Shown one piece after another: positions 20,250 through 42,899 of a stretch of 64,000 nt of DNA (positions are counted from its first letter, which is position 1; the number at the start of each line of letters is the position of its first letter). Origin of the DNA: Naegleria gruberi (taxonomy: Eukaryota); NCBI GenBank assembly GCA_000004985.1, contig GG738875.1, one strand, 5' to 3'. The notes beneath the pieces are model-generated. The model worked only from the letters and a program-made list of their open reading frames with translations. It was not told the DNA's origin and ran no database searches. The translations under genes and the position numbers were made by a program.

Positions 20250-21678
20250 TTATTTGAACAACTTCTTCAAGCTCATGTTGTGTTCGTCTCCTCTCTTTGT
20301 TACCTTAGCGACAGCCATTTCCAAATCTTCTTGAGTAACGTGGACACGTCTTTCACGCAAAGCAAACATACCACCTTCTGTACAGGTAGCCTTGATTTCA
20401 GCACCAGAAGCACCTCCAAGCATTGATGCAATCTTTCTGAGATTGATACCACGAGTCAAATTCATCTTTCTGGAGTGAATCTTAAGAATATCTAATCTGG
20501 CCAATTCGTTTGGATTTGGGAATTCAATTTTACGATCAATTCTACCTGGTCTTAACAAGGCAGGATCAAGAATATCAATACGATTTGTAGCCATGATAAT
20601 TTTGATGTTTTGTGTAGATTCGAAACCGTCCAATTGGTTAAGTAATTCCAACATGGTTCTTTGTACTTCACTATCACCACCTCCTTTACCACCTTCTGTT
20701 CTCGTACTACCAATACTGTCAATTTCGTCCATGAAAATAATAGATGGGGCATGTTCACGAGCCATGACGAACAATTCTCTGACCATTCTACTACCTTCAC
20801 CAATGTATTTCTGTACCAACTCTGAACCAGAAACACGAATAAAAGTACAATCTGTGTGGTGAGCAACAGCTCTAGCCAATAAAGTCTATTCCAATCATAC
20901 AATTATAATGTTGTTACACAATTTGTAGAGTGATCACAAGTATTCCGAATCATTAATGATGATGATGAAATACAATTATTATACAATAATAAAAAGATCC
21001 AAAGTCAATATAAATACAATCAAATAAAACAAACTCACCTTACCAGTACCTGGTGGACCATACATGATAACTATAGATTTAAAATGTTAAATAAATATTA
21101 AATACTAATGATGATCACTTACCTCCTTTTGGTTGAGCAATACCCAAGCTTTCAAAAAGTTCAGGGTGTTTGATTGGAAGTTCGATCACTTCCTTAACTT
21201 CTTTAATTTGTTCATCAAGACCTCCGACCATTTCATATGTAGCATCAGGAACCTTTTCTACTTTCATCAAACTGACCAAAGGATCAATCTTATTAGGGAG
21301 AATTTTATGGAGAGCATAGGAATCATTTCTGAGAGCAACTCTTACACCTGGTGATAAATCCTTCAATTCAATAGATTTGTCAATATCCACAATATATTTT
21401 CCTTCTTGGCTGATCTTGATAAGAACCTTCTTTTTTCCCATAACTTTAACAACTTCACCAACATGGCTTCCTGGTTCTTGGAGTTGTTGTAATTCTTCCT
21501 TCAAGCTCCTCACACGTCCGTTCAATTCATTTCTTTGTGCTTGTAAACGTCTAAGATTTTCGATTTTATCCTTTAATACAATTTCCTTCTCTTGAATCTT
21601 GGCAATGTAATAATTTTTCAATCCATTGGCTGATGGTGGTTTTGATACCAGTGTATTTCCAGAAGATGATGAGAGCAT
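20250..21678 (-). CDS. 26S proteasome regulatory ATPase subunit Rpt6 (PSMC5/SUG1)
   Basis: Three exons: 21678..21123, 21070..21039 and 20885..20250. The introns are 21122..21071 and 21038..20886, both GT..AG. The protein is near-identical to the conserved Rpt6 blocks. These include '[11 protein letters not shown]', '[16 protein letters not shown]|[11 protein letters not shown]|[31 protein letters not shown]', and the C-terminus '[13 protein letters not shown]...NMSLKKLFK'. Confidence 0.92.
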
Positions 21679-22177
21679 TATTTTTTTTGTTTGATGTTTC
21701 TTCATACAATGGCATTCCGTAAAAATAGAATCTATTTTTATTTTATATTTCCAAGACAAAGGTGTACACCTTGTTTGATTTACAGAATAATCCTTATTGA
21801 TGTTAATTGTTTCATTTCACTGATGAATTTGAGTTGTTCTAAAGAGTCAAACAAATGTTCAGAAAATTCAACATTAACAATACTATTCATAAATTGACTT
21901 TTCATTCCGCGTCAGACATTTCTCTTCCATATTTCCTCCGAATTCATTAATTGATGATTTTCAAAATCATGTCTGTTTCGTTTACTCATTTTTTAAATTG
22001 GAATACTCAACATTAACCTCTGTGAAAGAAGTTGATATCTCTTTATTACCAATCATATTCAATTGTCTGACATCTTCAACTATGACCATATCACGATGAA
22101 CGCATCTCAAAGTATCAGTATTCCCCATACGTTCACATTGTTTTCTTATTCAAAATTAAGATTTTAACAGAGTGAAT

Positions 22178-23717: not shown

Positions 23718-26700
23718 TTAAGCATTAATCTTGAGTCTTCTACCGGCTTGGGCTGGTTTTTTCTTCTTGTCTTCTACCTTTTTGAAACTTAGGGTTGGTT
23801 GTGCTGAATATTCTTCTAGCTTTACAAAACTCTCTGCTTCTCTAACCTTACGATCTTGTTCTGCTAAATGTTTGATGAGTGATATACATAGACTTTTGGT
23901 ATGACATAAACAAACAGAATCAGGGATAATATCTCCATCTTCTATGGCAACAATTTCATTTTGAGAAGTAATAGGCCACAGACTATCCATAATAATATAG
24001 AAATTCAACCCAATATTTGTTTGTTGGTAGAAAGCAGGAATCAAGAACCTTATAATAAATCTTTTGAGAACTGTTGTAAGGTTATTGATATTGACATTGT
24101 TTTCTTGGCATGATCTAATAATTCTTTGCACAATATTTTCTTCCAACTCTATAGTATACAAGTCACTGAGATAATTAACTTCAAAATCAAAGATAACTTC
24201 TTCTACATATTCAAACAAGTTGACAATCTTGTTGAGAGTAAAATTAGCGAAAAACTGTTCCTTGTCATTCAAGTTGATTTTCCAATCATAGCAAAATGTA
24301 GAGACTGTAACATCAGGATTAAAGTTCACCAAATTCATGACTTCCAATAGTTTTTGTAAGGAACCTTGGATTTTTTTCAATCTTGGCAAGTCGTTGATTA
24401 GTATATTCACTTTGGTTCTTTCAGAGTCGTCCAGAGGTATTGGATTTGGAATTTTCTTTCTGGCGGCCATATCTGCATTGCTACCAAAAGATTCACCAAT
24501 GTACTTGATTTTTCTCAAGTTTTCAAAATCCAATCGCTTTTTTCCTAATAAATACTTTGAGGCCAAAGCAAATTCAATCTTATCAAAAAGGTATCCAACT
24601 GTTGTACCTTTTCCATATTCATAATTTTTGTATGAAAAAGTAATGGTTAAATCTTCCAAGTATTCTGGGTTAATAATTACCAGATCTTTCTTTTGAGCTT
24701 TTTGTACTGGAATAGTAGGTAACCCTATGATACCATTAATAGATTTCAAAAAGGCAAGATTTGCTGATTTCTCAGCATTTTGTTCTGCAATATCTATAAA
24801 ATTATTTTGTACTTCAGCATAGCCTTGCAAGGCAGCACAAATATACAACCCAAATGGCTCTTGCTGATCTTCTATCAAGAAGAATGATAGCATTTCTGTG
24901 TCAATCTTTTTCTTTGATTTAGGTTGTTTACATCCATAATTTACAGCTTTTTCTGCTTTCCATTCTGTAACTACCTTTCCATAGAGTTCTTTCAAGCCAT
25001 TAGTTTCTGCATAATACTTCATTTCTGTTTTTTCAGCAGTTGCTCGTTCAATAGTGTTATCACATTTATCCATCAATAAATTGGAAAAAGTGATAAGGTC
25101 GAAAAGGCTTTCGATGTGATGTAGCTCTTTTTCATTAGTCAAGTAGGCTTTCAGGAAAGGATACAATTGTGCATTCTCTGGATTAGACATGAATAATGCC
25201 TTCATGCCTTGGACAGAAGGAGATGATGTAATTCTAAATTCTGTAAATTTGTTAATTTGGGAATTATTTGGCGTACATGTTTCTTCAATGATTGCTTGGA
25301 GACTACTGTTTTCTTCGGACCTGGTAGAATTCATTTTTATATCTCTGATTGAGAGGTTAATGTCTCCCAGAACTCTGGAGGTATATTCTATCAATCCATT
25401 TTCGAAAATGGCTCTCTTGTCCTCTGTATCTAACCTTTCATTATTTCCAAATAAATAATCCAAATTTGAAATAATACATTGCTGCAATAGGAAGCACAAA
25501 TTTTCACCTTGTTGATCTAAAATTTGGGCCAATATATTCCAATCCTTAGCAGCTTTTTCATTAAAGTAATCAATAGGGTTATTAAGTTGATTCTGGATGA
25601 AGAAACCTCTAATTTCATCTATGCTAACTAAATTGATATCTAAGCCATTGAGGATAATTGAATTAATAAAGAATTGCCAAACTCTGAACATTGCTGGAGG
25701 GAATTGTCTTACGGTATGATAATCATCATTAATTGCAGACATTGTACATCCTTTTTCGTTGGATGAATCGGTTCCGTCTCTTTTAGCTTCATCAATTCTA
25801 CTTCCTTGAATAAGTTTGTGACCTTCTCCTCCAAGTGTTGCTCCACATGTTGGGCATCTAGCAGTACCATTAGGTTGTCCACAATTTCCAATCAAATATA
25901 CATAACCACAATTACATCTGTATCTACTGTGACCTCCATCTTTGGTGTTGATAGCCTTCAAAATACCACCTAAAATATCGTGTTCTGCTGTAACTACGTA
26001 TGTGGAACGGACTGTATTTGGATTTTTGATGAAGATGGAAATAGGGTTTTCTGGTATGCATACAGCAAGACACATAACACTAATTCTAATAACATAACTG
26101 CAATCCCTTACAGTTGCTGATCTAAGTAAGCGTGTCACAAGGTTTTTTACAGATTTTGAAAAGCTTTGGAAGCTGCTTGCAAAGAATTCCACACAGAGAC
26201 GTAATGTTGAATCGGTAATTTGTGAAAAGTGAATATTGTTAGTAATCAATCCCATCAATGTGTACAACAACTTTGGATTGGACTTTGCCTCTTGAATAAG
26301 TTCCAACATATCTCTTGTATTATTCAAGTAGTACATTTCATCAAAAGCTTTTTCTGCTTCTTTGTATCTAGGTAGTGACCTAAATATGTTATAACCAAGT
26401 GTGTCGAACGATTTGTTTGTTAAATCAACATCTAATGATCCAGAGATATCAGACTCCACAAATTCTTTAAAATCTAACCAATTATCGAAAGATTGTTTCA
26501 CACATTTGAGAAGATAATTTTTTGCGTCTTCGTCTTGAGATAAATAATTGGAAATTATTGATCCAGAAATAGTGGTTTGAAGGTCTTCTTGACTTGAAAT
26601 ATTTTTCAAATGGTGTCTAATTGATGCAACGTAGTAGGCTCTTTCAATATCTGGAACTGACTCACTATTAGGAGAATTGATTTTGTTACCTAATATTCTT

Positions 26701-29700
26701 AATTCTTCTTCATTGGTCAATTCTTGGTCTGAAACCAGTTCTTCAAGTACATCTATAAACACATAGTAAAGAGGGCAATATGGGTTATTCACAAGAAGAT
26801 TGTTTAGAACCCTCAGGTTCTCAAAATTTCCCTCCTCTAACTCTTCTATATGATCAACACAAATCTTATAGACAATTTGCGTCAAATATTTAACATCTTG
26901 GATTTCAACAAGTTCTCTACATACTACCTCCAATAACTCTTCTGTAAGCTCTAGTCTTGAAATAAATACCATCTTGGATTGGAATAGGTTTTGGGACTTT
27001 GATAAAATTTGCAATATGTTTTCTATTAATTTTGGATCTTCAAGATTGCAATCATAGCAGAGAATCTCTGTACATATTTGTTGGATTTCATATGGGTATT
27101 CCAGTAAATAGTGAGAGAAATCTTTCAAAATTTTTAACAAAGTAGCTGAAACATTCTCTTCCAACAATATTGGCAAAACTGTTGCTATTTTGTCTTTCCA
27201 TTCATTGTTAGGGGTTCTAGTTCCGTCTTGAAGCAGAGATAAGGTGATTATATCAAGTAAATCATCCAAGCATTCAATATCCTCAGGTATCTCAATAGAA
27301 TTTCCACAACAATACTTGATTAATTCTACAACAGCAAGTAATGTTTTTTGGTTATTCCAAACCATTAGTATTAATCTTTCTTTTGGAGAGAGTACTAAGT
27401 TGATCTCGAATAAACCAAGTATGATATTTTCGAATATTTGAGCGAATTCTGAGTTCAGCCCCAGTTCTTGAGCAGTGATTGTCAAAAAATCTCTTTTAAG
27501 AAGTTCTTCTGAGTAATCTTGCAGGCCAAAAACGCATTCAGATGACTCTATCAAAGAAAGAAGTAGAGGCTCTAACTGTTGTTCTTGATTATCACCTTTT
27601 TCAATACTGGAATTTTGTTTTAACATTTCCAACTTGTCTTTGAGTTCCTTATAGATTTCACATTGCCACTTACTATATGGAAGTCTCAAGCCCTTTATCA
27701 ACATAATTTTAGAATTATTAGCTCCATTATTGTGGTATTTAGCAGTGATATTCTTCCATAAAGCTCTCAACTTCGGATCTGCAATGAAAAAGGTCTCAAG
27801 AGCTGAATGTTGTTCAATGAATTTCAAAATATTGAGCAATTTTCGTTGAACAAGGTCTTGCATTTCGTTTTTGATAGCATCTATCAGACAACCAGATTCT
27901 GCAAGCTTTTTCTTGTCAAGGGCAACATGTTTCCTCCAATCAAACTGAACCTTTTGCAATTCTTCATTAAGAATTTCTCCAATAAATTGTAAAAATTCGG
28001 CATCTTCAATTATCTTGGAAGATAATGTACTTATGTATTCAATATTTACGGCAAAGTAGTCTATCTTCATTAATGTTGCCTGAATGATATCTTTCAAGAT
28101 ACTTTCAACATTGTAAAATTCACTCGAGAACATATCATGGATATCTAATAAGTTGGTCTGGTCAAAATTAGGGGACAACTCGTCAATAGTCACTTGTTTC
28201 CACCCATTCATGAAATTTAATTTCCAATCTTCATTTGCATTCTCATAAATATCTCTGGAGATGTGTAAAATGAGGAATACCTTCTTGTCAGTCCTGTCAG
28301 AGTTTTGAATATGATGATCTACAATAAATTTTACCATCGGTACAAATTTACCATCCAAATGAGATTCAAAGTGTATGGTCAACAGCCCATTTTCTTCATC
28401 ATTAAAGAAATCTTCGACTTTTTTAGCAAATTCCCTCTCTGTATTAAACTCTCTTACCCTAATGGAGGATAACCAGGTAAAGTTTAATTCTGTCAAAATA
28501 TGTGAAAAGGTCATAATCATGTGAGCAAAACCATCACAATTGTTGTAGTAGTCTAATAGATTATTATGTTTGTCTAATTGGTATCTATTCAACCAGTTGT
28601 CACATTCTTCCTTAGATACGCTGGAATATGCCAATCTGACTATACCATCAAAGGTTGAAGTTGCGATCAGTGCTTCTTTGCAAATTTCTACACAGTGTTC
28701 TACTGAGGTAGTTGAATTAGTATTTGCAAGAACCAGTGATGATAGTGTATCTGAAGAATAGGATGGAAACATGTCGTTAACAGTAAAAACGTTACTATCT
28801 AAATTAGTAATATTTTCTACCCATTCATTTAAACGCATCACACATTCATTCACTTTAGATTCACTAATATTCTCAAAGTTAAGAATTTGTTTTTCGAATC
28901 GGTTCAAAAAAGGAGGATCACAGGTTGCCAGACGCTTTTGGTCAACTAAAACTATGCATCTAAAATTCTCGTTAACGTGGCACATAGGGTTACTATGTGG
29001 GCCAATAGCAATTCTACAATTTCTTCTTTTAGCGACATAAGTATAGTTTTGATTCAGCATATCGTATAAGCTGCCATAGACACTATCTAAATCTTTCAAA
29101 ATCAATGTGTACCCTTCTTCCATACAATAAATAATCTTATTCAAAACCACATAGCTGTATTCTTCTGTCTTGTCCAAATTGAACTGACTTCCATAAATAA
29201 TTTCAGGACTTCTATTAAGGAACTCTTTGTAATAGTACGTAATGATATCTAATGCAGAATCACTATTAGTAATTAACATTAGATGTCTGGCATTCTTATC
29301 TTCAATATTTTCTTTGATTAGTTCCAATATTGGCAAGTCTGATGGTACAGATTCAGTAATTGATGCTTTTTCAAATAATATTTTCTTGAAATTCATAGCC
29401 GAAGCTGAAAGACCTCCAAAATTTCTATCTATAGCTCTACAAAGACTAACAGCAAAATTTTCTTCTTCTTCAATGATAACACTTTTGACAAGTGAGTAGT
29501 AATCTCTCAAACCATGGAAATTGTTATATTTTTTGTTTGAAATAAATTCGTAGTAGGACTTAGAAAGATAATCTAATAGAAGTTCTATTGTATCTGTCTT
29601 TTCAATATGATTATTTTCAAATAAAATTGTTTTTGCAATTTCCTTTAGCTCATTTTCATCAGCTTCAGGTCTAGAAACATGGACTGCTCTGTTCATTTTT

Positions 29701-32700
29701 GCTGCGTCCAACCTCCAGTTTGAGATACCAACCACGGCAACATCCCTTTTCTTTGGTTCTAACAATGCGTGTAGAGCTTTTAGAGGGTTGTGTGCTGAAA
29801 TTTCAGCTAAACCAATTTCATCCAAAATTACTACTGGTATAACTTTTTCTTCTTTTTCATTAATTTTCAAATATCCTCTTGCCTTATCAAATACCTTGAG
29901 AATACCCTCTGATGTAGAAGACTCTGAACCTTGGAATGCAATGAAGATGAGTTGTGGGAGAGTTTTGAAGTATTTATCTATTGAATCTTCTCCTCTTAAA
30001 TTACTAGTCAAAAGTTGAATAGCTAAACTTTTGCTACAACCTGGCTTACCAACAACAAAAACAGGAAGCTTGTTCAAAATGCACACCAATATTACGAAAA
30101 TATTTTCTTTCAAAGACCTATTCCAGGCAATATTTGGTGGAATTTCCATTCTTCTTAGATAACTTGTCTGCTCTTCATCAACTATCCTTACAAAGTCTTC
30201 TTTTGAAATTCTTGGTAAATGTTTACAAACAGTAGTTAGATAATTTTCTCTATATTCTAACTTTGCTAATCTAGAGTAATAACAAACAGAAAGTGCTAAT
30301 ACAACGCTAGAAATATCATATTTGTCATCACGTTGGTTTTCTTGTATCCACATGATTTGGTTTGCTTTTTTCAATGGTTCTGATCTTTTTTTAAGGGTTT
30401 CTAAGAAATACTGACACAAAACAATAAATCTATTGACGTCTCGCAAACTAACGCTAGAAGCATCTTCCAAATCTCTTACAAAAGCTTGGGATTCACAAAT
30501 TATTGTGCAGAGAATATGTTTTGGAAATTGTATGGTTAATCTTCCAAGCATTGTTTGGATATAACTCATTTCGTCAGTTTGAGATAAAAAGCCATAATCC
30601 CAAATATAATCAATTAAACAATCAGGTAAAGGATTGACTCTATAAGCAAGGTCTGATGCTTTATCTTTTTCTAGAGCAGATGTATAAATATGCTTCCTTG
30701 TTCTATATGGATTGCATGCAGCAATAACTGAGATATTAATTGGTAGGCTGATTCCACGTATTGACTTTAAAGTTACAATTTCTGAGACCAAACCTAAATA
30801 GTCACATGTGTTAATTTCATCCAAGAATACCAAATGCTTTGTATTAGGATTGTTATAAGCTTGTTCTATAACTGCTTCCATAAAGCTGATAATTATGTCA
30901 GGTGTTGTTCCAGCATGGAAATTAAGTAAATTAAAGGAGGCACCTGTTTTTTTAGCTAAAAACTCTACCAGACTTGTTTTTCCACAACCTGTTTCACCTG
31001 ATATCACAACTGGTATACAGGCTTCTACTCTTAATAGTATTAACATCATTTTCAACAAATTGTCTGCAGTCATGGCATATTGACCATCATACTCTGTAAT
31101 AGATCCGGCCATCTTTCCCAACTCAAATAACAAGGCTTCTTGATTGAGAGAGGAGTAATCTGGAAGAGAAACTTTTTGGCTTTGCAAAGTGTCAAAAATA
31201 TCGGAATGGGTTTGTTGAAGGAAAGACAAGTCTCTATATAGAGCTGTGATAGTGGAATCGTACTTATGGAAAGCAACAATAAGGTGATTACTTTCCTCCC
31301 ATCTAACCATTCCAGATTCTTTAAACAACACCACATCTGATTTTGATCCCATCACATGATGTTGTTGTTGTTTTCTATTTCCATGCACAGATCTGGTTGA
31401 AAATTCAGAATACACATCCATTAGTACTTTAACTAGTTTGCTTCTAATTTTTTGGGATTCTGTAACATGTGTAATTTGTTGGGTTTTTAAGAAAACTGAC
31501 TGAGAAAATTTGATAAATTGTTCAGCAAGAACATTAATGAATACGTGCATTAAAGAGTAATTGATCTCCTTCTTATTTTTAAAAAAGTACTTTTGAATCA
31601 AGAGTCTACATTCTTCATCAGATACAACGGTTGCATTTGCATTTGGGCCACTGAATATAATATCTTCCGTATCTATTGTGTCATTATCCAACGCTTTCAG
31701 GTAATTAAATGTGACTTGACTTCTAGATAATAATGATTTGTTGAAAACTAAATTTTCTAAACGAAATTCAATATCTTTCTTATTAATCAAATATGTTTCT
31801 CGAATGGTCAAGAAGTTCCAAAATCTGGATTGGCTCTCTAATTCAATAAATATATCAAGGTTATTAACAGGAATTTTGAACATAACACGGTCATCTATCA
31901 CCATACCAAAAGTTATAATCTCGAACAAAAGATTATTCAGCAAGCAAGCATTTGATTGGGATAAATTTCTTATATCAATGTGTAAACAGTCTATATGTGA
32001 GAGATTCAACCTCTTTAATCTATTGCACAATTCTGCTCTGTTTACTGAATCCATAATAGGTAAATGAACCAGTTTTTTACGTCTACGGAGTGCCTCAAGC
32101 CTAATATTTTCTGTTTTTCCGACACCAGATACATCTGATGAGTAAAGATAGGCTTTTGAAAATGGTTGAATAGCTTTAGTAGTGGTTGTGTTTGGAATAT
32201 TTTGTAGGAATCGTTTGAATTGGTTTACAACATAGCTAGTTTGGTTTCCACTGGTATCTATCAAGCACAGTGAGCTCTTTTTTTCTAGATTAAGTTCTTT
32301 GAGTCTATTAATTTTATCAACTAGTTGAGCTTGAAGTGAGAACGAAAGCTTCTCTATTTGTGCTATGCAATATAGATCACCAGATAGATTGTTAAAAAAC
32401 GATCTTGAAACAATAGCATTAAGTGGCTGCCAAGTAGTACCATATTCACAAAATAGTACTGTGGAGGGTTTAGGAAGGCTATTAGTGAAAATTTTCAGGA
32501 TTGTGCTAATGAGCTCTTTGTTTTCCACAGATAGGACTACAAAAGTATTTCTAAAGTAGGATGATACATTTGCATCAGATTTAACCTTATTGTGAAAGAT
32601 TTTATCCAAAATCTTACCCAATCTTTCTAATCTATGTTCCATGTCTAATAGCTGTTCTTGTTGTTGGAATTGTATCAATTTAATTTCATTCTTGGATATT

Positions 32701-35700
32701 GGATGGATAAAATTTAATAGAGGATAAACATCATCTACTGTGCCATTTCCAGAAAAATACCTTTCCAACACCCAGAATCGCTCTGGAGCGAAGAAATTCA
32801 AAAAGAAATGTTTTCCTAAATAATTATCCAAAATGGTTTGCCAGTTTTGTGTTTCCGTCTCAATTTCTTGGATATTATCTGGCAATGCATCGAAATCTAT
32901 TTTTTCAGAACAATAATCCTTATTGTTTCCCAAAGCTTTCAAATTGTTAATTTTTGTTAAGTAATCAAAAGCAAGATCACAATATTCTATAAACATTTCC
33001 ATATCATGGAAATTTCTTTCAAGAGATTGGTCTTTTCTTGAATTTATAATCAACAATGCTCCGCTTCGTAAATCTTGTATATCAGCTATACTGACTTGTT
33101 TTACCTGGTCGTCATTACCATTGTAAAGCAGAGATAAAATATAGGCAGTAACATTTTCCAATGAAACTCTAAAATAGCCAGATTGTGTGGCATTGTAAAT
33201 TGTTTCCTTTGTGAGCTCTCCTCTGTTAGCAATAGAGTCTAGCAGATTTTTCAAACCGTTAATAGAATGATTTGAGCTTTCGACCTTCACTACTAATTTT
33301 AAATCTACAACAATATTTGATAAACGGTTACAAAAATCTTGGATGCTTCTATATTCCTGGCTAATGATTGGCCTGATTAATTTGCTGGCCTCAATCAAAT
33401 CTGCCACTGTTTCTTGCCTTATAAAGTTTTCTCCCAAATCTTCAACTGCATTTACCAAAGCCATAATACTTTGTTGATCAGTCTCCTTAATGAATTGAAG
33501 GAGTGGAGAAGAAGTAGACAAGGCATCTAGAAAAAGACAGTCCATTCTAGCAAGAGAATAGGTGCTAATTATTTGCTCTACACGCTTACAAGTTTCAATC
33601 CAATTCGATTCTAAGCTCATATTCTTGAATTCATTTAATTCATCAATTTCAGTATCAATATCACCGATGTCAAGAGCATTTGAGCCAGTAATCTCTATAA
33701 TTTTTTGAACCAGCTCCATTACCTGTTTTGTAAAGAGAAGGGTTTTCAATTTGGTAGTAAGTTCTATTACTTTTTCATCACTTGCGTCAACAAGATTACC
33801 CAAAAATTTCACTTCATTTGTAATATTTTCTTTTTTGATAGCTCCTAAAATTTCAATAACTTTGGAGGAAGGTAGTATTCTCCCCTAAAAACAGTTCATA
33901 AGAAAAATGTGTAAGCTCTACACTTATAGCAGAACCAAGATCGATTATATCACTAACCAAGCTAGTATGTTTGCTTGTTCTCGCTTTAAGGAGTTTGGAA
34001 AAGGATTTTGACTGCTTGCAGCAAATGATAGTCTTCAAATTTTTGTTTTCAGCTCCAGATACAGATTGATTTTGGAATTCTGAAAAGCTCATCTTCATCA
34101 TGCCATCATATAAATCCTTATATTTCTTTTTCATCTTTTCGAAATCAGAACAATGGGTACAGTATGCATCAAGAATTTTTCTCATATCATTGATGTGTTC
34201 TTTGTATGTATTGATTTGTTGTATCATATCAGCAAGACTTTTAACACAATCCTCTCCGAGATATAACTTCAATATTTGATGATCATTGTTGTTCAAATTT
34301 TCAATTTTTTCCACTGTTACAGCTGCAAGGTTCTTCTTTAAAAAGTTAATCTTTGTGGTAATGTTCAAAAGTTTTGGCTCTGGTTTTAGAGTAAAGTACT
34401 TAATCAATAAAAACCAAGCATTGTCTTTAAACACTCTTTCCGTGTCCATCAATTCTAATATCTTCAAAAGGATGGCACGTAAGTGAGAAGTGTTGAACTC
34501 CTTTCCGCAACAAACACCATCAATGACATAAAGGTACAAGGGTACTTTTTTGCTTTGCAATTTTTTGATAGTAATTTTAATCACTTCAACCACAGATTCA
34601 TCAAGAAATTTAATTGGCAACGCACACGGTTCGTTGATGATCGTCTTTAAACAAAAATCCAACAGTGACTCATCAGTTCCCTTTTTCTCCAATCGAGGGA
34701 GAATAACCTCATGCACAGTATCTAGAAAATTCTTTCCAAGATTTACGGTACACAAGTGAAGATAATAAGTTAAATCTTCTACACGTACACCTCCGAAAGT
34801 AACTCTAGCGGCAAGCCATTTCTTCAGCTGATCTTTCAATTCATTGTTTTGGAATTTTTTTATAAATTTGCAATGGTGATAAAAAACTTTACAGTCTTTT
34901 CATTGTCGGTCAATTGCATGGTGCTAAGAAGTACTTTTAGTTTGTCTTCCTTCTTGATTTCAGATTGGTCAATGAGTTCTTGAATTCTGATCAATTCTGT
35001 TTCATCTTCCAAATCAACCTTTTCAGACAAAATCAATGCAACCATTTGTGTGTCAACAGATAAACTCAACTTGGGATAGTTTTCTCTAATTGAGAACAAC
35101 TTATCCATGTTGGATTCTGTACCAATTGCTTTCTTGAACTTGTCTTTAAATTCATATGAGTTTGAATATTCTGGATTCAGTTCTAAAATGAAATCAAGAT
35201 ACGTCATTCTAACTGGTAACGAATTCAAGAGGAAACGTGCCACTGCACCAACGTAAGGACTATTCAAAATGGCTTGCTTCTTTTTCATAAGGTTTTCCAT
35301 TATCTCACTCAAAGCTCCTTCGTTTGTTATTAAGTAATTAGTATGATTGTTCTTTACAAACTCATAACCTGTAATTTCGGTGTAATCTGAAGACAAAAGT
35401 CTTAAGGCAAAATCAGGAGTGAGACTGATGGCAATTCTGGTGAGAATAACACCTAAACATTTGGATATTGTTTTGTATTGCTTCATTTCTGAATTAAAGG
35501 GAACAGCTAAAAGAGAGTTGAAAATCAATTTCATATCATTAAATTGCAAATTGAATAGAGCATCTGACAATCCAAGTAGAGTACATATGATGAACCGAGT
35601 GTTAACATCTTCTGGGGTTAGGTTCTTCATAAAGGTCACAGCATAATAGAGATCAAGTTTTTTGTTTGATTGGACGAATGATGTTAATAAACTTTCTAAC

Positions 35701-36941
35701 TTTTCATAAATGTTTCTACCTGTTTACAGATATAACACGGCAATATTCTACAAGTCCAACAGTATGGTTTTGGTCGAACGCAAAACTATATCTACTTTCA
35801 CCAAGCATGACCATACAAGGTCTAATGTCATTGCCAGTGAAAAATCTATTTACTACATTCTTGGAAACGTGCATTTGTAAAACGACAGAATGGACATATG
35901 GATCAAAGTTACCTCTCATTACATAAAATTGTTGCCCAATCGGTTCCATCTCTCCCAATTTTCTTTTTCTATCATCAAAAACCTCTACCTTGCTGTATTG
36001 ATTGTTCTCTTGCCACAAATAGATGGTTCGTTTCAAGAATGCCTCATTGCTGACAATAGAACTGGAAGAAGTTGCTACCTGGTTGTCTTTTGTAATTGGA
36101 ATCTGAATCAGTCTTTTGGAGCGAGTACCCTTTCTGAAAAGTTTCGATCTTCTTCTCTTGTTGCTGATTTTCCTTACTCTCTGATACCACTGAAACAGTC
36201 TGTTGTTCGATTGTTTCTGGAGGATCTGAAATAGGAGGATATTGAACCTTCTTTGGTTCACTGATCGTACTGTTTTCGACTGCTGGTAACTCATTACCAA
36301 TAGTCTGATCAGTATCAATGTCCATATTATCATTCGATTGGTTACCACTTGTTTGATCGACTGGAGGTATGTGTGTTTGATCACCAGATGAAGTGCTAGT
36401 TCTAGGTGTTTGGGATTCGGTTGATGGTTTTGGAGGGCCTTCAGAATTCCCAACCCTATTCTCCTCTTGCACAGTTGTGGAACTGTTGGGAGGATTAGCT
36501 GTTAACATTTTTTTTGAGATGATGAGACGAAACGTGATGAAGTGTCAAAGTTTTATTTACCCAAAGGTTTGGAAACTGTTTGCCTCTCTGATCTTTGATT
36601 GGTACATGAAGAAGTTGCGTTGTGGACGCAGGTTGCCAATCCTCTTGTGTTCGAATTACAACAAGTGCATGGTCCTAAACAGACGAAACAAAACTTAAGT
36701 GAACAATTACTGCATAACATGTGACGACATCCTCTACCACTATGAGTATTTGGAGTAAAGAAGTCTGGACACAAACGCATTGAAGGCACTCCTGTAGCAA
36801 GAAATGGAGCTGATCCGTTCATTGAAATATTCTATTCGAATCACGTTTAGTTACAGATGGATCAATTACGGATAATGAACCAATTAAAATACTTACAACT
36901 GTTTTGCATTTAGAGGCTGCGTCTTGTTTGTGTTCATTCAT
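23718..36941 (-). CDS. giant RNF213/mysterin-like protein: N-terminal Cys-rich module, S/T-rich linker, dynein-like AAA ATPase units, RZ-type zinc finger (putative E3)
   Basis: The main exon 33812..23718 (3364 aa) has no ATG. Its frame stays open upstream to a 'tttttag' acceptor. The exons 34839..33853 and 35639..34860 lie in the same frame, separated by one TAA that sits inside a candidate 65-nt GTAAAG..CAG intron. Further upstream exons are found on the same strand. The first exon 36941..36897 ('MNEHKQDAASKCKTV') ends in GTAAGT. The next exon is Cys-rich, with 'CPDFF..GCRHMLCSNCSLKFCFVCLGPCTCC'. A phase-1 GTAAAT..AACAG intron then joins it to an S/T/Q-rich exon. AAA motifs include 'VISGETGCGKTSLVEFLAKK', 'VVGKPGCSKSLAIQLL' and 'DVSGVGKT'. 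The RZ finger is 'RYRCNCGYVYLIGNCGQPNGTARCPTCGATLGG'. The exact exon boundaries at 35650..36100 are unresolved. Confidence 0.65.
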
Positions 36942-37145
36942 TTTTTTGTAATGAAAACTTCACGTTCAAGTCATCAATCAAATATAAAAAATGGAATGCT
37001 CATCATGTCACTTTGTGCTGCCATCATCAATGTTTGTTGGTTTTCCATTGAGTGATGACTGTGATCACATCACCACTTCTTGTTTATCTGTAGTTAGTTT
37101 ATTAGTACAAACATATATTTAACAAAATTTAAGTGTTTATTAGAA
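36942..37145. promoter_or_regulatory. putative bidirectional promoter between giant RNF213-like gene and UBL-TerD gene
   Basis: A 204-bp AT-rich spacer lies between the two divergent start codons at 36941 (minus) and 37146 (plus). It is inferred from the gene arrangement only. Confidence 0.3.
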
Positions 37146-38048
37146 ATGGATAAATGTCCAGAAGATGGATTTCTCCTTCCGGAACAAACCAAGGATTTTA
37201 TCTCAAGATCTTTGAGAGGGCAACAAGTAGAGGTGAATGATCAAGAAATTAATGTGATTGAAACTCCACAAGTTGATGAACCAATCACTGTTCAAATTTT
37301 GACACTTGGTGGCTCAGTTTGTCAAGTTAAAACTAACAAGAAGCACTCAATCATCACATTGAAGGAAGAAATTGAGAAGTACATGGATATTCCAGTTGGT
37401 AAACAGTCGCTCTTCTTTAGGAATACAGAATTGGAGAATTACAATAATGGTATGTCAAGAAGAGTGGGAGATTTTGGAATTCAAGATAATGACAAGATCT
37501 ATCTCTCCATTTTAATGAAGGAAATTGATGTTGGAGACAATATCAATGCAGTGAAAGTTAGATTACAATGGAATTGGGTTAATTCTCGTGATTTCTTGGA
37601 TGGAATCGTCTACGTTCTCGATGGAAATAACAACATTACAGCAAGACTCGATTATGATAACAATGTTTCTCCTCTTTGTGGAGAATCAATCTTCCACAAA
37701 GGAGACGATATTGACAATGACAGAAAATTAGGATGTCAAATCATTGGCATGAACCTTGAAAACATTCCAATGTCTGTTCAAACTATTGTCTTTACTTTGA
37801 GCTCATACAGAGCATCTTCTCTCAGCTCCTTCAAGAATCCTCGTGTTCACATCGAAGAGGAAACAAGAGGTCAACCATTGGCTGGTTGTGATACTGATGC
37901 GATTAAATCTCAGGCAATTATTGTTTGTGCTTTTAGAAGATCACAACAAGGATGGAGAATCATTCAAATCAATAGAGAATCTTCAGGCAATGCACAAAAT
38001 GATTCTGCTCTCATAACATCCATTATTGATGTTGTCAGAAATTTGTAG
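37146..38048 (+). CDS. ubiquitin-like (beta-grasp) domain fused to TerD-family domain
   Basis: The N-terminal 'ITVQILTLGGSVCQVKTNKKHSIITLKEEIEKYMDIPVGKQSLFFRNTELEN' has a ubiquitin-fold pattern. The C-terminal half aligns with TerD: 'VKVRLQWNW', 'FLDGIVYVLDG', 'HKGDDIDNDRKLGCQIIGMNLENIPMSVQTIVFTLSSY', and 'QAIIVCAFRRSQQGWRIIQI'. Confidence 0.7.
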   Translation: MDKCPEDGFLLPEQTKDFISRSLRGQQVEVNDQEINVIETPQVDEPITVQILTLGGSVCQVKTNKKHSIITLKEEIEKYMDIPVGKQSLFFRNTELENYNNGMSRRVGDFGIQDNDKIYLSILMKEIDVGDNINAVKVRLQWNWVNSRDFLDGIVYVLDGNNNITARLDYDNNVSPLCGESIFHKGDDIDNDRKLGCQIIGMNLENIPMSVQTIVFTLSSYRASSLSSFKNPRVHIEEETRGQPLAGCDTDAIKSQAIIVCAFRRSQQGWRIIQINRESSGNAQNDSALITSIIDVVRNL

Positions 38049-38413: not shown

Positions 38414-41400
38414 ATGGGAATCGTGAAACAAAAACATAAAAAAATGTCTGATACGCTCCTTCTCAGTCGTCAATTTAGTGTGTTTGGTGCCAATGAGACT
38501 CATCATATTGAAAACTGCAAGCTTTTGATCATTGGTTGTAATGGATTAGGCAATGAAGTTGGTAAGTTTTGTTTCGTCATTCATTCTCACAACAGTTTTA
38601 TAGCCAAGAACTTGATCATGGCAGGTGTGAAGAATGTTACTCTATTCGATCCGAAGGGTGTAGAATGGAGAGATTTATCAGGTCTTGTAAGTGAGAACAA
38701 TTCCACTTTTTCGAATACTTTTGTTAACATGATTATTCGAAACGTACTACAGACATTTGTTGGTTCGATTACAATGAAAACCAGAGCCAAGATCGTAATG
38801 GATTATTTGAAAGATCTTGCTCCCAAAACAAACATCAAGGAATCAACTGCAAAGACTTTTTCTGCATTATGTCAAGAAAGTTATCTCAGAGAATTCACTT
38901 TTGTTGTTTGTTGTGGTTATCCTCTTTCTTTGAATTCTAAACTTAACGAAACTTGCAGAAAGGTCGGTATACCTTTCCTTTGCTGTGATTCAAAGGGAGT
39001 TTTGAGTTATGTTTTTGAAGATTTGGGTGAAAATTATACCTACATTGTTGATGATGGTAAAACAAATTATGACACCTCAATTCCTATTGTTTCCATTCAA
39101 AAAGTTGAGAATTCTGATAACAAATATCAAATTATGTGTACTTCTACCTTGAGTGATGGGGTTCTTGTTTCATTCCATCAAATTGTTAACAAATCAATGG
39201 GTGAGGTCAGTGTTGAGGCAAAGAATGACAAGTCAATTGAAACTTCTGAGCATCTTAAAGAAGAATCTATTGATAAGGCTGCAACAACGTCTTCTGCCCC
39301 TGAAGTGAGTAATGAAGGGGAAGTTGAAACTGAAAAGCAAGAAAACATTCCACTTGAACAAACAAAACAAAACGAATCCAATATGAATCCTCAAAATTCC
39401 CAAGTCGAAGAAGAGGTGAACATGATGGAAATTCAAGAAAAATCACACCACCTCCTCGTGAAGAACTATTGGTCCAAAAATCATTCAATCTTCCTACTGG
39501 AAAGTTTAAAATTTCCAACTCTTCCAAGAACTGCTTTACAATTGAATGTGAAGATGAAATTAATCCTGAATGTTATGAAGGAGGATGTTTCTTGAAATTG
39601 GTACGAGAACAAAAAAGTGTTTCCTTTGTAAGTAGTTTTGAGTTTTTTCATGTTCAATTTGACAATGTTAATTAGAAACCATTGGAAGAATTGATTAATC
39701 ATTCCAAGGACAGTTTCTTTTACAATAGAAGAAAGCCAATTGACAATTTACAACTAATGTGCTTGAAAGTATATGATATCTTTGTTCAAGAAAATGGACG
39801 TTCTCCACTTCCATGGAACACTAAAGATTGTACTCAATGCAAGGATTTATCAATTCAGCTTATCAATTCCTATATTAATAATGATATCGTTGAAGACCTC
39901 AAAGGTTTAGAAAGCAAAGCAGAGCTATTCTTTAATACAAGCCAGCAAATATTGCACCATTGAATGCCATGGTTGGTGGTCTAGTTGCCCAAGAAACCTT
40001 GAAATCCATCTCCAGAAAGTACACTCCTCTCAAAGATGATCGAGCCCTTAATCAATTCCTTTTCATTGACAACTTTAATTTGGGTGATACTTTGGAAGAA
40101 TCAATAATGAAGGAAAATGTTCAAAATCTTAGAGGAACAATCTATGAAGGTGTTTCCCCACTTCTTACTGAGAGGGCAATTTCACATTTGAACGGAATGA
40201 ATGTTCTTGTGGCTGGTGCAGGTGCTGTTGGTTGTGAGGTTTTGAAAAATCTCTCTTCCATGATGGTGAGCACAAACAAGAACTCTTCGATTCATGTAGT
40301 TGACTATGATCGTGTTGCTCCTTCAAATCTCCACAGACAAATTTTATTTAGAGATTCAGATGCCAAATTAATGGAATTTAAGGCTATTGCTGCGAGTAGA
40401 AAGCTCAAGCAAATGAATCCAGATTTGAATTTGATTGCCAAAACTGAGAAATTATGCTATGAGAGTGAAGAGACTGAATTTCCTGAACAATTCTGGCAGA
40501 ATGTCAATGTCATCTTTTCATGTGTTGATAGCAAGGATGCAAGAGGTTATTTAAGCGATAAAGCTCAAATCCTTCACATTCCCATGATTGAAGGTGGTAC
40601 TGAGGGATCTAAAGGTTCCTCTCTCATCATTCACGAACAAGTTGCAGGTTATGGATCCTACATGAATCTGAATGCTTCAAGAGAGGAGGAAGTTGTAATC
40701 AATAATGCATGTATTCCATCCTTTGCAATTTATAAACCAGAGCAAGCCATAAGAAAGGCAGTAGAACTTTTCACATGGTTCTTTAAGGAAAATGTTGAAG
40801 TTGTGAATTTGCTTGGCAAACATGATCTTTCTGATGAGAAGGTTAAAGAAAATTATGAAATGTATAGAGATGGTCTTGAGAAACCAGAAAAAATGTCCAG
40901 ACAACTCTTTAATATATTGTTTGAGGAACAAATTAATGAAGCTGCTGCCAAATATAATGAAATCAATGAGAAGGGTAAGTTGTAAAATGTTGGAATTGTT
41001 CATAACCAAACTATTCGAAAGATGATGTCAAATTATTGTTGAGAAAACCACCCATTCAAGAAAAATTCAATGCTCATGACGAATCCCATTTAAGATTCCT
41101 CAAAGCATCCAATGCTATCATTAAGGAATTTAAAATCAAAAAGAAAAAGCTCACACCTATCCATTTTGAGAAAGATGAGGATTCTCATTTGGAATGGATT
41201 GTTTCCTGCTCTATTCTATTGTCCAAATGTTATGGAATATTCCATAATGGAGAGAGAGAATTTGTTAGAAGAGTTGCTGGACAAATTATCCCTGCCATCA
41301 TTACAACCACTTCAATGGTCTCAGGTTTCATGTGTCTCAATTTGTTCAAGTATGTCCAGACTGGATATAAGAATCTCAGTAATTTGGATTTTAATACTGC

Positions 41401-42740
41401 AAGTAATGGATATAGTTTCCATCATTGTGTTCAAAAACTGAAGAGTCCAGTCCCTGGAAAGTTAATTTCCAACTTTGAAACAGTTTCAGATTTTGTAATT
41501 TATCCTTCCACAACAATTACTGAATGGGTTGACTTTGTAAAGAGAAAGTATGAAATTGGAGTTGAAAAGATAACAATCTATCCAAAGTTTGATGTTTATG
41601 ACTTTGGATCTCTTCCATGGGGTGAAACGTAAGTTATTTGCAGGCAATCTGATTTTATATTCGAAACCATTTCTAGATTTTATGAAACTTTCAGCAAGAA
41701 TAGAACAATGCAAAAGAAAGAATGGATTACCCTCATCAGTGAGACATACATTGATGGTTTTCCATACAGTTTCAAAACTCAAGTCAGAGTTTCTGTTCCA
41801 CTCAAACTGCAAAATGTTGAAGGATCGTGTTATTTGAATTCTGCATTGCAAGTTTTGCATTCATGTCATGAATTTGTTGAGCAATTGAGAAATAGCTCAC
41901 CAACAACACCTGTTGCAAAGGTTTTGAAATCTGTTTTTGAGGATAACTTTTCAAGAGTAAGTTTTTTCTTAATTCATGTTAATTTGAACCCAAAAAGTCC
42001 AAAATTAATGAACTCAGACGATTGACAAACAGATCAGACAAATATTCAGGAGATACACCAGTAAGTTTTTTTTGCCTAATCATCATCAAAATATTCTAAA
42101 TAATAATAATATTGACAACTAGAAATATGTGAGATCAATTTTTACTGAAATTTTAGGAGAGGAAGAAATTGATAGTGAACTCATCGATTGTAAACTGGTT
42201 GACTATTTCAGTTGGAAATCTCCTCAAATTTGTGATGTTTGTGAAGAGTGTCAACAGTCTATTAGAGGACCTATCAGACCCATTTCCTCTCAAGTTCTTC
42301 TACTTCAAGGAAATCCAAAAGTTTCCACTGAACAATTACTGAACAATAGTTTCTGTTTCGATTCCAATAACAAGTGTCAATGTGGAGGTAAAATTTTCAG
42401 ACACAAAATATTCCAATCCTGCCCAGAATATCTTCTCTGTGAAATTGAAAATCCACAACAAAAGTGGATTCCAAACAATTCTATCGAAACCAAAGTTTAT
42501 ATTGAAACAGTTGACTGTACTTATGAACTAGTTGGTGGAGCCATTTATAGTGGAAATAGAAGTGGTGGACATTGGAGAGCCTACTCAAAACAAGCTTATG
42601 GTTGGTTTAGTTGTGATGATTCAATGGTTTCCTATATTGGAACAACTATTCCAAGTTCATACTTGTTAGGAAGTGCCTTTGTGGCATATAAGAAAGTTGG
42701 CAATGATCCAACAAATGAAGATGAAATGGTTGATGAATAA
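38414..42740 (+). CDS. canonical two-domain E1 (UBA1/UBA6-like ubiquitin-activating enzyme) fused in-frame, via splicing, to a C-terminal USP-type deubiquitinase domain
   Basis: E1 part: the first Rossmann half reads 'LLIIGCNGLGNEV|AKNLIMAGVKNVTLFD', with a 41-nt GTAAGT intron at 38562..38602. The junction into the second half is 'PLNAMVGGLVAQETLKSISRKYTPL'. The active adenylation half is 'VLVAGAGAVGCEVLKNL...VVDYDRVAPSNLHRQILFRDSD'. A catalytic-Cys candidate is 'NNACIPSF'. The E1 continues with 'FEKDEDSHLEWIVSCSIL...GQIIPAIITTTSMVSGFMCLNLFKYVQ' and a UFD-like end. Fusion point: the E1 ORF's TAA at 41630 is part of the donor 'ac|GTAAGT'. Splicing to the TTTCAG acceptor at about 41685 keeps the frame into 'KNRTMQKKEW...'. 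USP part: the Cys box is 'LQNVEGSCYLNSALQVL', the zinc ribbon is 'ICDVCEEC...CQCGGK', and the His box is 'YELVGGAIYSGNRSGGHWRAYSKQAYGWFSCDDSMVSY'. Unresolved frame shifts are noted at about 39440-39470 and about 39935-39960. Confidence 0.7.
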
Positions 42741-42899
42741 ACTAATGTACAATTTATTGACAAACTAATCGAATTGCCTTAGTTTCGTATGATGTTGTCG
42801 GAGAACACTCTCGAACTATATTCATTAATATTCGTACAAAAACTGGAAATTGCTTTTGAAACCAGTTTATTCAACAACAATCAAACTAAACATAAAAAA

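What the first reader, a model, noticed from the sequence alone, without database searches (positions are those of the whole stretch)
23718..36941. Giant (>4000 aa) RNF213/mysterin-like AAA + RZ-finger protein with an extra N-terminal Cys-rich module
This is a roughly 13-kb gene. It has dynein/midasin-like AAA Walker A sites (GETGCGKT, GKPGCSKS) and a textbook RZ finger (C-x-C-G-Y-x-Y-x-I-G-x-C-G-x-P-x5-C-P-x-C-G). I found no RING finger. The newly joined 5' exons encode a Cys-rich segment 'CPDFF..GCRHMLCSNCSLKFCFVCLGPCTCC' that I do not recognise from RNF213. In vertebrates, RZ-finger AAA giants such as RNF213 and ZNFX1 are innate-immune effectors. Finding one in a protist next to an E1-DUB gene suggests that part of this system is ancient.
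Basis: partly seen in the sequence, partly recalled or inferred. Interest (0 to 1): 0.7.

Follow-up and report, generated by a model that had tools for sequence, protein, structure and literature searches.

The report
Naegleria RNF213-like ubiquitin ligase gene
This is a real relative of the human immune ubiquitin ligase RNF213 in the amoeba Naegleria gruberi, but its front part is broken by small frameshifts rather than split by introns, and the "extra" cysteine-rich module belongs to a separate small gene next door.

Summary
The window is Naegleria gruberi. ORF 23718..33812(-), 3364 aa, is 100% identical to the deposited NAEGRDRAFT_80150. It belongs to the RNF213 family: the AAA core matches human and mouse RNF213 at E~1e-123, and midasin only at 1e-9. 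Walker A/B pairs are present at the AAA3 and AAA4 positions. The RZ finger passes Pfam (E 5e-16) and keeps the catalytic Cys/His dyad at the exact spacing. The modelled C-terminal module matches only RNF213 structures. There is no RING.

A 97%-identical metagenome contig (L004) carries the upstream pieces as one uninterrupted ORF starting at ATG 36508. The window differs from it by +1, +1 and -4 nt exactly where the reading frame changes, so these are frameshifts (real or assembly errors), not introns. Repaired, the gene would encode about 4263 aa.

The Cys-rich segment is an 89-aa ORF ending 45 nt upstream of that ATG. It resembles the catalytic RING2 (Rcat/IBR) of Ariadne-type ligases. In its relatives the module sits at the C-terminus, and they stop at the same place. 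It is therefore most likely a separate gene.

This is a new member of a known family, of moderate interest.

The parts
23718..33812 (-). Intact 3364-codon ORF of the RNF213-like gene (stop codon included). The deposited model NAEGRDRAFT_80150 (3300 aa) starts at the internal Met at 33620.
28176..31202 (-). AAA core aligned to mouse/human RNF213 (ORF aa 871-1879 against mouse construct 1787-2881).
   Evidence: E 2e-123 to 3e-119; only RNF213 chains returned
32109..32129 (-). Degenerate P-loop SGVGKTE. It is shared with homologues and is read here as the AAA2-type nucleotide site.
   Evidence: the AAA2 assignment is an inference
30975..30998 (-). Walker A GETGCGKT at the AAA3 position. Its Walker B LVFLDE lies at 30816..30833.
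30027..30050 (-). Walker A GKPGCSKS at the AAA4 position. Its Walker B VVILDE lies at 29817..29834.
25818..25922 (-). RZ finger YRCNCGYVYLIGNCGQPNGTARCPTCGATLGGEGH. The predicted catalytic Cys is ORF C2644 (25881..25883) and the dyad His is H2665 (25818..25820). The predicted Zn ligands are C2633, C2635, C2653 and C2656.
   Evidence: the dyad is defined in PMC12075652
23721..26045 (-). E3-shell plus C-terminal domain region.
   Evidence: phmmer E 4e-5 to human RNF213 4505-5020; AF2 model, Foldseek top 9 all RNF213
36080..36508 (-). Segment B. It holds the likely true start ATG (36506..36508, context CAAAAAAAATG) and a Ser/Thr/Pro/Gln-rich, disordered-looking N-terminus.
36079..36079 (-). Frameshift 1: an extra G relative to L004 (CCAGGTAG against CCAGTAG).
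35723..36078 (-). Segment C: a predicted all-beta domain. This block is about 8% divergent from L004.
35722..35722 (-). Frameshift 2: an extra C relative to L004 (GTAAACAGG against GTAAAAGG).
34864..35721 (-). Segment D: helical N-arm.
34861..34863 (-). Frameshift 3: 4 nt missing relative to L004 (TTTGCATCCAAAAAAA against TTTATAAAAAAA).
33856..34860 (-). Segment E: helical N-arm. L004 covers it only down to 34683.
33856..33884 (-). Zone of the fourth frame change (E to the big ORF), unresolved. Either one extra G in the GGGG run at 33881..33884, or a 73-nt GTTAGT..TTTTTAG intron at 33885..33957.
36553..36822 (-). Separate 89-aa ORF holding an IBR/Rcat-like Cys-rich module with the GCRHMLC catalytic-Cys motif. 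A possible 5' exon lies at 36897..36941, with a 65-nt GTAAGT intron at 36832..36896.
36509..36552 (-). Spacer between the stop of the 89-aa ORF and the ATG of the RNF213-like ORF.

Best explanation
The locus holds two genes on the minus strand.

(1) An RNF213-family giant E3 ubiquitin ligase.
- In its intact form it is a single uninterrupted ORF of about 4263 aa, starting at ATG 36508.
- Its layout is a disordered N-terminus, a small beta domain, a helical arm, a dynein-like AAA core, an E3 module without a RING, an RZ finger and a C-terminal domain.
- By homology (inferred, not tested), ATP binding at the AAA3/AAA4 sites switches on the E3 module. An E2~ubiquitin thioester docks on the C-terminal domain and E3 shell. 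Ubiquitin passes to the RZ cysteine (ORF C2644), assisted by His2665, and then to a substrate.
- In the sequence given, the first ~2.7 kb is out of frame at three proven points and one probable point. These are small indels, not introns. Only the 3364-aa ORF, which keeps every catalytic motif, is open.
- Whether the indels are real mutations or consensus errors of the reference assembly is not settled. If real, they would leave an arm-less or dead protein in strain NEG-M. My split is roughly 55:35.

(2) A separate 89-107-aa gene immediately upstream. It encodes a lone IBR/Rcat-type zinc module of the Ariadne kind.
For: Family identity:
- phmmer against PDB returns only RNF213 chains (E 2e-123 to 3e-119) over ORF aa 871-1879, plus a second stretch in the E3 module.
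- Database homologues are RNF213 and RNF213-like giants; midasin scores 3.6e-9.
- Pfam RZ at E 5e-16.
- The Cys..GG..His dyad is spaced 21 residues apart, as in human C4516/H4537, and is invariant across the nine sequences of alignment A1 (the query plus eight homologues).
- Walker A/B pairs are present at both active sites.
- The AF2 model of the last 805 aa hits only RNF213 structures, E 6e-13 to 7.5e-8.

Gene structure:
- L004 is collinear with window 37100..34683 at 97.2% identity. It has one 610-aa ORF where the window has four frame pieces, and the window indels sit exactly at the frame changes.
- pN/pS over 605 codons is 0.31, with 22.5 synonymous and 26.5 non-synonymous differences. 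By my own hand calculation this is a chi-square of about 19 against neutrality.
- Codon-usage scores are positive in the expected frame for every piece.
- Three L004-guided repairs plus one guessed repair give a 4263-aa ORF.
- The conserved IDAVE motif then lies about 1000 aa from the start, as in Nematostella, Xenia and P0011.

Separate upstream gene:
- The 89-aa ORF has its own stop in both the window and L004.
- Its relatives carry the module at their C-terminal end and stop 6-15 residues after a conserved RQT tail.
- The next ATG has the A-rich context of other start codons in the window.
- The best PDB match is ARIH1 RING2 at E 7.5e-5, then parkin RING2.
Against: - L004 ends at 34683, so the fourth frame change and the rest of the gene have no comparator.
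- L004 is a short metagenome contig of unknown organism. A close Naegleria relative is an inference from 97% identity.
- The 62-nt spacer is a formally in-frame GT..AG interval (GTAAAT..AACAG). A stop-skipping splice that fuses the Cys-rich ORF to the ligase therefore cannot be excluded without RNA data.
- No expression data were available.
- The AF2 model is of moderate quality (mean pLDDT 64.8, TM about 0.33).
- The catalytic mechanism is transferred from mammalian RNF213 at about 30% identity.
- The human Zn-ligand His4509 is Tyr here.
Confidence: 0.75

Rival explanations
1. One reading: one spliced gene of about 4250 aa whose first coding exons include the Cys-rich module. On this reading Naegleria RNF213 carries an extra N-terminal Rcat-like catalytic domain.
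For: - A stop-free 4250-aa model can be built with six GT..AG intervals of 62-103 nt.
- The spacer after the Cys-rich ORF is an in-frame GT..AG interval whose donor overlaps the stop codon.
Against: - Three of the six 'introns' are disproved by L004, which reads through them in frame and differs from the window only by 1-4-nt indels.
- Only one of the six donors is GTAAGT, whereas seven homology-supported introns in the window are GTAAGT (six) or GTGAGT (one).
- Relatives of the Cys-rich ORF end where it ends.
- None of the 65 RNF213-like homologues has an IBR domain in its precomputed Pfam list.
Confidence: 0.07
2. The frameshifts are consensus errors of the reference assembly, for example from switching between divergent haplotypes. 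On this reading strain NEG-M really has an intact, intron-less 4263-aa gene.
For: - The indels are clustered.
- Two of them flank exactly an 8%-divergent block, while the flanks are 1-1.5% divergent.
- All of them involve G or C bases in an AT-rich context.
- The region shows purifying selection.
- The other 10 kb of the gene is flawless.
Against: - Four indels in 2.7 kb would be far above the error rate expected of a finished Sanger assembly (my background knowledge, not measured here).
- The 4-nt difference is complex.
- The neighbouring 89-aa ORF has Phe at a zinc-ligand position that is Cys in all eight relatives compared.
- The neighbouring E1 gene also has an apparent frameshift. That fits real decay of the neighbourhood.
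Confidence: 0.3
3. The indels are real and the whole gene is a recently dead pseudogene. The 3364-aa ORF is open only because too little time has passed.
For: - There are three or four frameshifts upstream.
- No expression evidence was available to me for any part of the gene.
- Nearby ubiquitin-system genes also carry lesions.
Against: If decay were neutral after a first hit, later hits should be spread over 12.8 kb. All later hits falling in the first 21% has a probability of about 0.01-0.04 (my calculation). This suggests the 3' 10 kb is still constrained, perhaps as an arm-less protein started at Met 33719 or 33620.
Confidence: 0.2

Closest known systems
Mammalian RNF213 (mysterin); structures 6TAX, 7OIK, 8S24, 9JW1
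   Same: - Homologous dynein-like AAA core, with Walker A/B at the AAA3 and AAA4 positions.
- RZ finger with the Cys/His dyad at identical spacing.
- E3-shell and C-terminal-domain fold.
- The RZ finger lies about 700 aa from the C-terminus.
- A long N-terminal arm of about 1000 aa precedes the conserved IDAVE motif.
   Different: - No RING domain.
- The RZ zinc ligand His (human H4509) is Tyr, with a CxC pair instead.
- The N-terminal beta domain is not recognisable as CBM20.
- About 30% identity in the core; about 4263 aa against 5207.
- Broken by frameshifts in this sequence.
- Function untested.
Uncharacterised RNF213-like giants of cnidarians, bivalves, rotifers, Glomeromycota and ciliates (e.g. 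Nematostella LOC5509270, Rhizophagus OCT59_013464, Tetrahymena TTHERM_00006030)
   Same: - These are the closest sequence relatives (31-35% identity over 57-62% of the ORF).
- Most lack a RING in their precomputed Pfam lists.
- The fungal and ciliate-like members share the CxCG[YF] form of the RZ finger.
   Different: - The very closest hits (the P0002-P0009 group) have no Pfam RZ hit, and the four whose RZ position I read by eye (P0002, P0003, P0004, P0008) show only a shortened Cys motif there. Naegleria keeps a complete RZ finger.
- A CBM20 Pfam hit is listed only for the Diversispora protein P0012.
ZNFX1
   Same: It shares only the RZ finger with its catalytic Cys/His.
   Different: ZNFX1 is an SF1 RNA helicase with NFX1-type zinc fingers and a Miz-like second E3 domain (10.1101/2025.10.14.682297). 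There is no AAA core and no homology outside the RZ finger.
ARIH1/HHARI RING2 (Rcat) of RBR ligases; relevant to the upstream 89-aa ORF only
   Same: The motif CP..(x9)GC.HM.C..C...FC.VCLGP aligns to the catalytic RING2, including the active-site Cys (E 7.5e-5).
   Different: - No RING1 or IBR precedes it, and the protein is only 89-107 aa.
- It has a family-specific C..RQT tail.
- The window copy has Phe in place of the second zinc ligand.

Membership tests
RNF213 family | Dynein-like AAA core homologous to that of RNF213 | tested here: met
   E 2e-123 over about 1000 aa, only RNF213 chains returned; midasin at 3.6e-9 against RNF213-like at 0 to 1e-120.
RNF213 family | Intact Walker A and Walker B in the two catalytically competent modules (AAA3, AAA4) | tested here: met
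   GETGCGKT/LVFLDE and GKPGCSKS/VVILDE align to the human GETGCGKT/FFDE and GKPGSSKS/VVLDE.
RNF213 family | RZ finger carrying the catalytic Cys/His dyad (mouse C4462/H4483) | tested here: met
   PF20173, 58.5 bits, cutoff 27; aligned to the human dyad, spacing 21; invariant across the nine sequences of alignment A1; definition from PMC12075652.
RNF213 family | Zinc-ligand His of the RZ finger (human H4509) | tested here: not met
   Tyr at this position. A Cys two residues after the first ligand (CxC) probably substitutes. The same variant occurs in 12 of the 18 other RZ-bearing homologues found.
RNF213 family | RING domain inside the E3 module | tested here: not met
   no RING Pfam hit, no C3HC4 pattern, no Cys cluster between the AAA core and the RZ finger. 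The RING is dispensable for RNF213 activity according to PMC12075652.
RNF213 family | E3-shell and C-terminal E2-binding domain fold | tested here: met
   Foldseek top 9 all RNF213, E 6e-13 to 7.5e-8, alignments of 575-842 columns. The model is only moderate (pLDDT 64.8, TM 0.33). E2-contact residues were not mapped.
RNF213 family | N-terminal CBM20 carbohydrate-binding domain (human; PMC11549300) | tested here: inconclusive
   no Pfam hit; predicted all-beta domain with no significant structural match; the best probabilities go to CBM48/Ig-like domains.
RNF213 family | ATP-gated transthiolating E3 activity | not testable with these tools
   Needs biochemistry.
RBR ligases (for the 89-aa ORF) | Rcat/RING2 with the catalytic Cys motif | tested here: met
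   ARIH1 RING2 E 7.5e-5, parkin RING2 1.5e-3. Pfam IBR_2, IBR_1 and IBR hits, below the curated cutoff.
RBR ligases (for the 89-aa ORF) | RING1-IBR-RING2 triad | tested here: not met
   Only 18-35 residues precede the module, and the divergent Ubl-TerD gene starts about 200 bp upstream.
ZNFX1 family | SF1 helicase core and NFX1-type zinc fingers | tested here: not met
   the only helicase-named Pfam hits (RNA_helicase E 0.0016, Viral_helicase1 E 0.026) lie below their curated cutoffs on the AAA3 P-loop; no NFX1-type zinc-finger hit.
Dynein / midasin | Best homology to the dynein heavy chain or midasin AAA ring | tested here: not met

The most novel reading that the evidence does not exclude
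The stretch from about 20 to 44 kb may be a functional ubiquitin-system island. It contains a lone Rcat-type mini-protein, the RNF213-like ligase 45 nt downstream of it, a divergently transcribed Ubl-TerD protein, an E1-USP fusion, an A20 zinc-finger protein and a proteasome ATPase. On this reading the Rcat mini-protein works with the RZ ligase, either as a partner or through a stop-skipping splice, as a second thioester-forming site. The lesions seen in three of these genes would then reflect co-decay of one dispensable defence module in the axenic laboratory strain.
Probability: 0.1. Interest if true: 0.7.

Novelty: new member of a known kind. Interest (0 to 1): 0.35.

Why it matters
- It shows that a complete RNF213-type machine (AAA3/AAA4 sites, RZ Cys/His dyad, C-terminal domain) exists in Discoba, ciliates, fungi and animals. 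The RING is not part of the shared core. This fits an old origin for this unusual class of E3 ligase.
- N. gruberi is a culturable, bacteria-eating amoeba, so it could be used to ask what the ancestral job of RNF213 was.
- The deposited gene model is about 960 aa too short at its 5' end. The reference sequence either has errors here or records a strain-specific truncation.
- None of this changes what is known about how RNF213 works.

Tried and rejected
1. Intron model. I built a stop-free 4250-aa spliced model with six GT..AG intervals and supported it with codon-usage scores. L004 showed three of the 'introns' to be coding sequence with 1-4-nt indels, so I rejected it.
2. A 16-nt intron or a -1 slippery heptamer (AAATTTA at about 34863) as explanations of the frame changes. 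I considered both while reading the sequence and dropped them for the same reason.
3. Word-indexed protein searches with the N-terminal 862 aa and with the E1-USP concatenate. Neither returned an identical protein. I first read this as 'unannotated'. One search then found P0075, showing that the prefilter had been swamped by low-complexity words. Those negatives are unreliable.
4. Homology of the upstream pieces to the N-arms of homologues. BLASTP found nothing. A profile of nine N-arms aligned collinearly across the E/F boundary, but piece E alone gave p of about 0.05 and piece D gave no signal.
5. Conserved neighbourhood. No E1, USP or Ubl genes lie next to homologues P0002, P0012 or P0018.
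6. AF2 of the beta domain without an alignment gave pLDDT 56.6 and no significant fold match.
7. A scan of JGI metagenome contigs for a relative covering the E/F boundary found nothing.
9. Literature. No paper holds both 'RNF213' and 'Naegleria', and I found no survey of RNF213 outside animals.
Full report
**What is in the sequence**

The minus strand carries one open reading frame of 3364 codons at 23718..33812. Four or five shorter open frames lie directly upstream of it, in different phases, up to about 36941. The window has 33% G+C. The large ORF is 100% identical to NAEGRDRAFT_80150 of Naegleria gruberi. That entry is 3300 aa, is deposited as a hypothetical protein, and is labelled 'RZ-type domain-containing protein' by UniProt. 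The deposited model starts at an internal Met (window 33620), although the frame is open further upstream.

**Family identity**

- A sequence search of all PDB chains returns only RNF213: nine distinct sequences, E 2e-123 to 3e-119. The match covers ORF residues 871-1879 against the AAA core. A second, weaker stretch covers the E3 module.
- In the large protein database the relatives are RNF213 and RNF213-like giants. They come from cnidarians, bivalves, rotifers, Glomeromycota, ciliates and vertebrates. Midasin appears only at 3.6e-9.
Each has its Walker B.
- The RZ finger passes Pfam's threshold at E 5e-16.
- Aligned to human RNF213, the cysteine of '..NCGQP..' and the histidine of 'GGEGH' fall on C4516 and H4537, 21 residues apart. 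This is the catalytic dyad described for mouse C4462/H4483 (PMC12075652; human C4516 in 10.1101/2025.10.14.682297).
- Both dyad residues and three zinc cysteines are invariant across the nine sequences of alignment A1, the query plus eight homologues.
- One zinc ligand differs. Human H4509 is Tyr here, with an extra Cys two residues after the first ligand. The same CxCG[YF] form is found in the fungal and ciliate-like relatives.
- An AlphaFold model of the last 805 residues, built with eight homologues, reached mean pLDDT 64.8. It matches only RNF213 structures (E 6e-13 to 7.5e-8). The next hit is at E 0.3.
- There is no RING. No RING-type Pfam hit and no C3HC4 pattern were found, and no cysteine cluster lies between the AAA core and the RZ finger.

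**Gene structure**

Codon usage supported coding potential in every piece, in the expected frame. Two things did not fit:

- Only one of the six donors was GTAAGT. Seven homology-supported introns elsewhere in the window are GTAAGT (six) or GTGAGT (one).
- Two of the 'introns' looked like coding sequence.

The decisive result came from a full HMMER search with the Cys-rich ORF. Its best hit, P0075, is a 99%-identical 89-aa protein from a 2428-bp ENA metagenome contig, L004. L004 is collinear with window 37100..34683 at 97.2% identity. In L004 the 89-aa ORF stops. 45 nt later an ATG opens one uninterrupted ORF of 610 aa that runs to the end of the contig.

The window differs from L004 by an extra G at 36079, an extra C at 35722 and 4 missing nucleotides at 34861-34863. 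These are exactly the points where its reading frame changes. The differences between the two sequences are biased towards synonymous sites: pN/pS is 0.31 over 605 codons. The region is therefore genuine coding sequence under purifying selection.

The 'exon joins' are thus frameshifts, not introns. With the three L004-guided repairs the ORF from ATG 36508 runs 885 aa. Removing one G from the GGGG run at 33881-33884 gives a single ORF of 4263 aa. That fourth point is not covered by L004. A 73-nt GTTAGT..TTTTTAG intron there remains possible. In the repaired protein the conserved IDAVE motif lies about 1000 residues from the start, as in the full-length cnidarian relatives.

**Are the frameshifts real?** This is not settled.

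For real lesions:
- Four indels in 2.7 kb is far more than I would expect from a finished Sanger assembly (my background knowledge, not measured here).
- The 4-nt change is complex.
- The 89-aa ORF has Phe where all eight relatives compared have a zinc-ligand Cys.
- The neighbouring E1 gene also appears frameshifted inside a conserved motif.

For assembly error:
- The indels are clustered and all involve G or C.
- Two of them bound exactly a block that is 8% divergent from L004, while the flanks are 1-1.5% divergent. That pattern could come from a switch between haplotypes in the consensus.

If the lesions are real, their confinement to the first fifth of the gene suggests that the 3' 10 kb is still under constraint. 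By my estimate the probability of that confinement under neutral decay is about 0.01-0.04.

**The Cys-rich module**

- It matches the catalytic RING2 (Rcat) of ARIH1 at E 7.5e-5 and of parkin at 1.5e-3, including the active-site 'GC.HM.C' motif.
- It gives sub-threshold hits to all three Pfam IBR families.
- Its relatives in the 1.8-billion-protein library carry the module at their C-terminal end, behind PARP, kinase or HECT domains. They stop 6-15 residues after a conserved 'RQT' tail, just as the window ORF does.
- None of the 65 RNF213-like homologues has an IBR domain in its precomputed Pfam list.
- The ATG at 36508 has the same A-rich context as other start codons in the window.

I therefore read it as a separate gene of 89-107 aa, tightly linked to the ligase gene. 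The spacer is formally an in-frame GT..AG interval (GTAAAT donor), so a fusion by splicing is not excluded. I give it about 7%.

**Mechanism**

Everything in this paragraph is inferred from mammalian RNF213 and was not tested here. ATP binding to the AAA core activates the E3 module. E2~ubiquitin docks on the C-terminal domain and E3 shell. Ubiquitin is passed to the RZ cysteine and then to the substrate. The RING is not needed for this in the mammalian enzyme. All sequence features required for these steps are present in the 3364-aa ORF. What the N-arm recognises, and what the protein does in an amoeba, is unknown.

**Surroundings**

On the plus strand lie:
- a ubiquitin-like domain fused to TerD (37146..38048), about 200 bp from the 5' exon proposed for the small gene (ATG 36941);
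- an E1 fused through a GTAAGT intron to a USP deubiquitinase (38414..42740);
- an A20 zinc-finger ORF (42789..43991).

A proteasome ATPase lies at 20250..21759 on the minus strand. The ubiquitin-like domain has no C-terminal Gly-Gly. This clustering looks non-random. However, three homologues elsewhere have no such neighbours.

**Novelty and score**

The protein is already deposited and carries an automatic RZ label. I found no paper that mentions RNF213 together with Naegleria, and no survey of the family outside animals. It is a new, RING-less member of a known family.

The corrected gene structure, the broken 5' end and the ubiquitin-system neighbourhood are worth recording. Interest 0.35.

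Noticed in passing
window 36553..36822 (-), possibly with a 5' exon at 36897..36941: A stand-alone 89-107-aa protein consisting of little more than an Ariadne-type Rcat/IBR module with a C..RQT tail. The window copy has Phe at the second CPxC zinc ligand, where the 97%-identical contig L004 and all seven other relatives compared have Cys. The donor of the possible 5' intron is GTAAGT in the window but GTACGT in L004.
   Followed up: yes
window 35735..36040: A block that is 8% divergent from L004 (pS 0.21, pN/pS 0.18) inside sequence that is otherwise 1-1.5% divergent. It covers the predicted beta domain and is bounded by the two +1 insertions. It could be an old allelic lineage of a recognition domain or a haplotype switch in the assembly.
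   Followed up: partly
window 37146..38048 (+): A gene encoding a ubiquitin-family domain (no C-terminal Gly-Gly) fused to a TerD domain. It is transcribed divergently, about 200 bp from the 5' exon proposed for the Cys-rich mini-gene (ATG 36941).
   Followed up: partly
window 38414..42740 (+): A very divergent UBA1-like E1 (22-28% identity to its best E1 hits). It is joined by a GTAAGT..CTAG intron at about 41633 to a USP deubiquitinase (Cys box GSCYLNSALQ, His box in ORF 42129..42740). An apparent frameshift lies at about 39925-39950, between ..AELFFNTS and the conserved ANIAPLNAMVGG motif, in a 25-nt zone with no GT. The word-indexed protein search returned no identical protein, but that negative is unreliable.
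   Followed up: partly
window 42789..43991 (+): An ORF with an A20-type zinc finger starts only about 50 nt after the USP stop codon. Tight tandem spacing recurs at this locus.
   Followed up: no
window 20250..21759 (-): A proteasome Rpt ATPase gene with two introns (GTAAGT, about 53 nt; GTGAGT, about 170 nt). They flank a 32-nt mini-exon that encodes the Walker A loop. I used it to calibrate N. gruberi splice sites.
   Followed up: partly
L001 10001..22111: The closest non-Naegleria relative (P0002, 4036 aa, 34% identity) is a single intron-less 12-kb ORF on a 63-kb metagenome contig of unknown organism. It has only a shortened Cys motif where the RZ finger should be.
   Followed up: no
(method): The word-indexed protein search returned nothing for queries containing long low-complexity stretches, even though a 99%-identical protein (P0075) is in the collection. 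'No hit' from that tool is not evidence of absence for such queries.
   Followed up: yes
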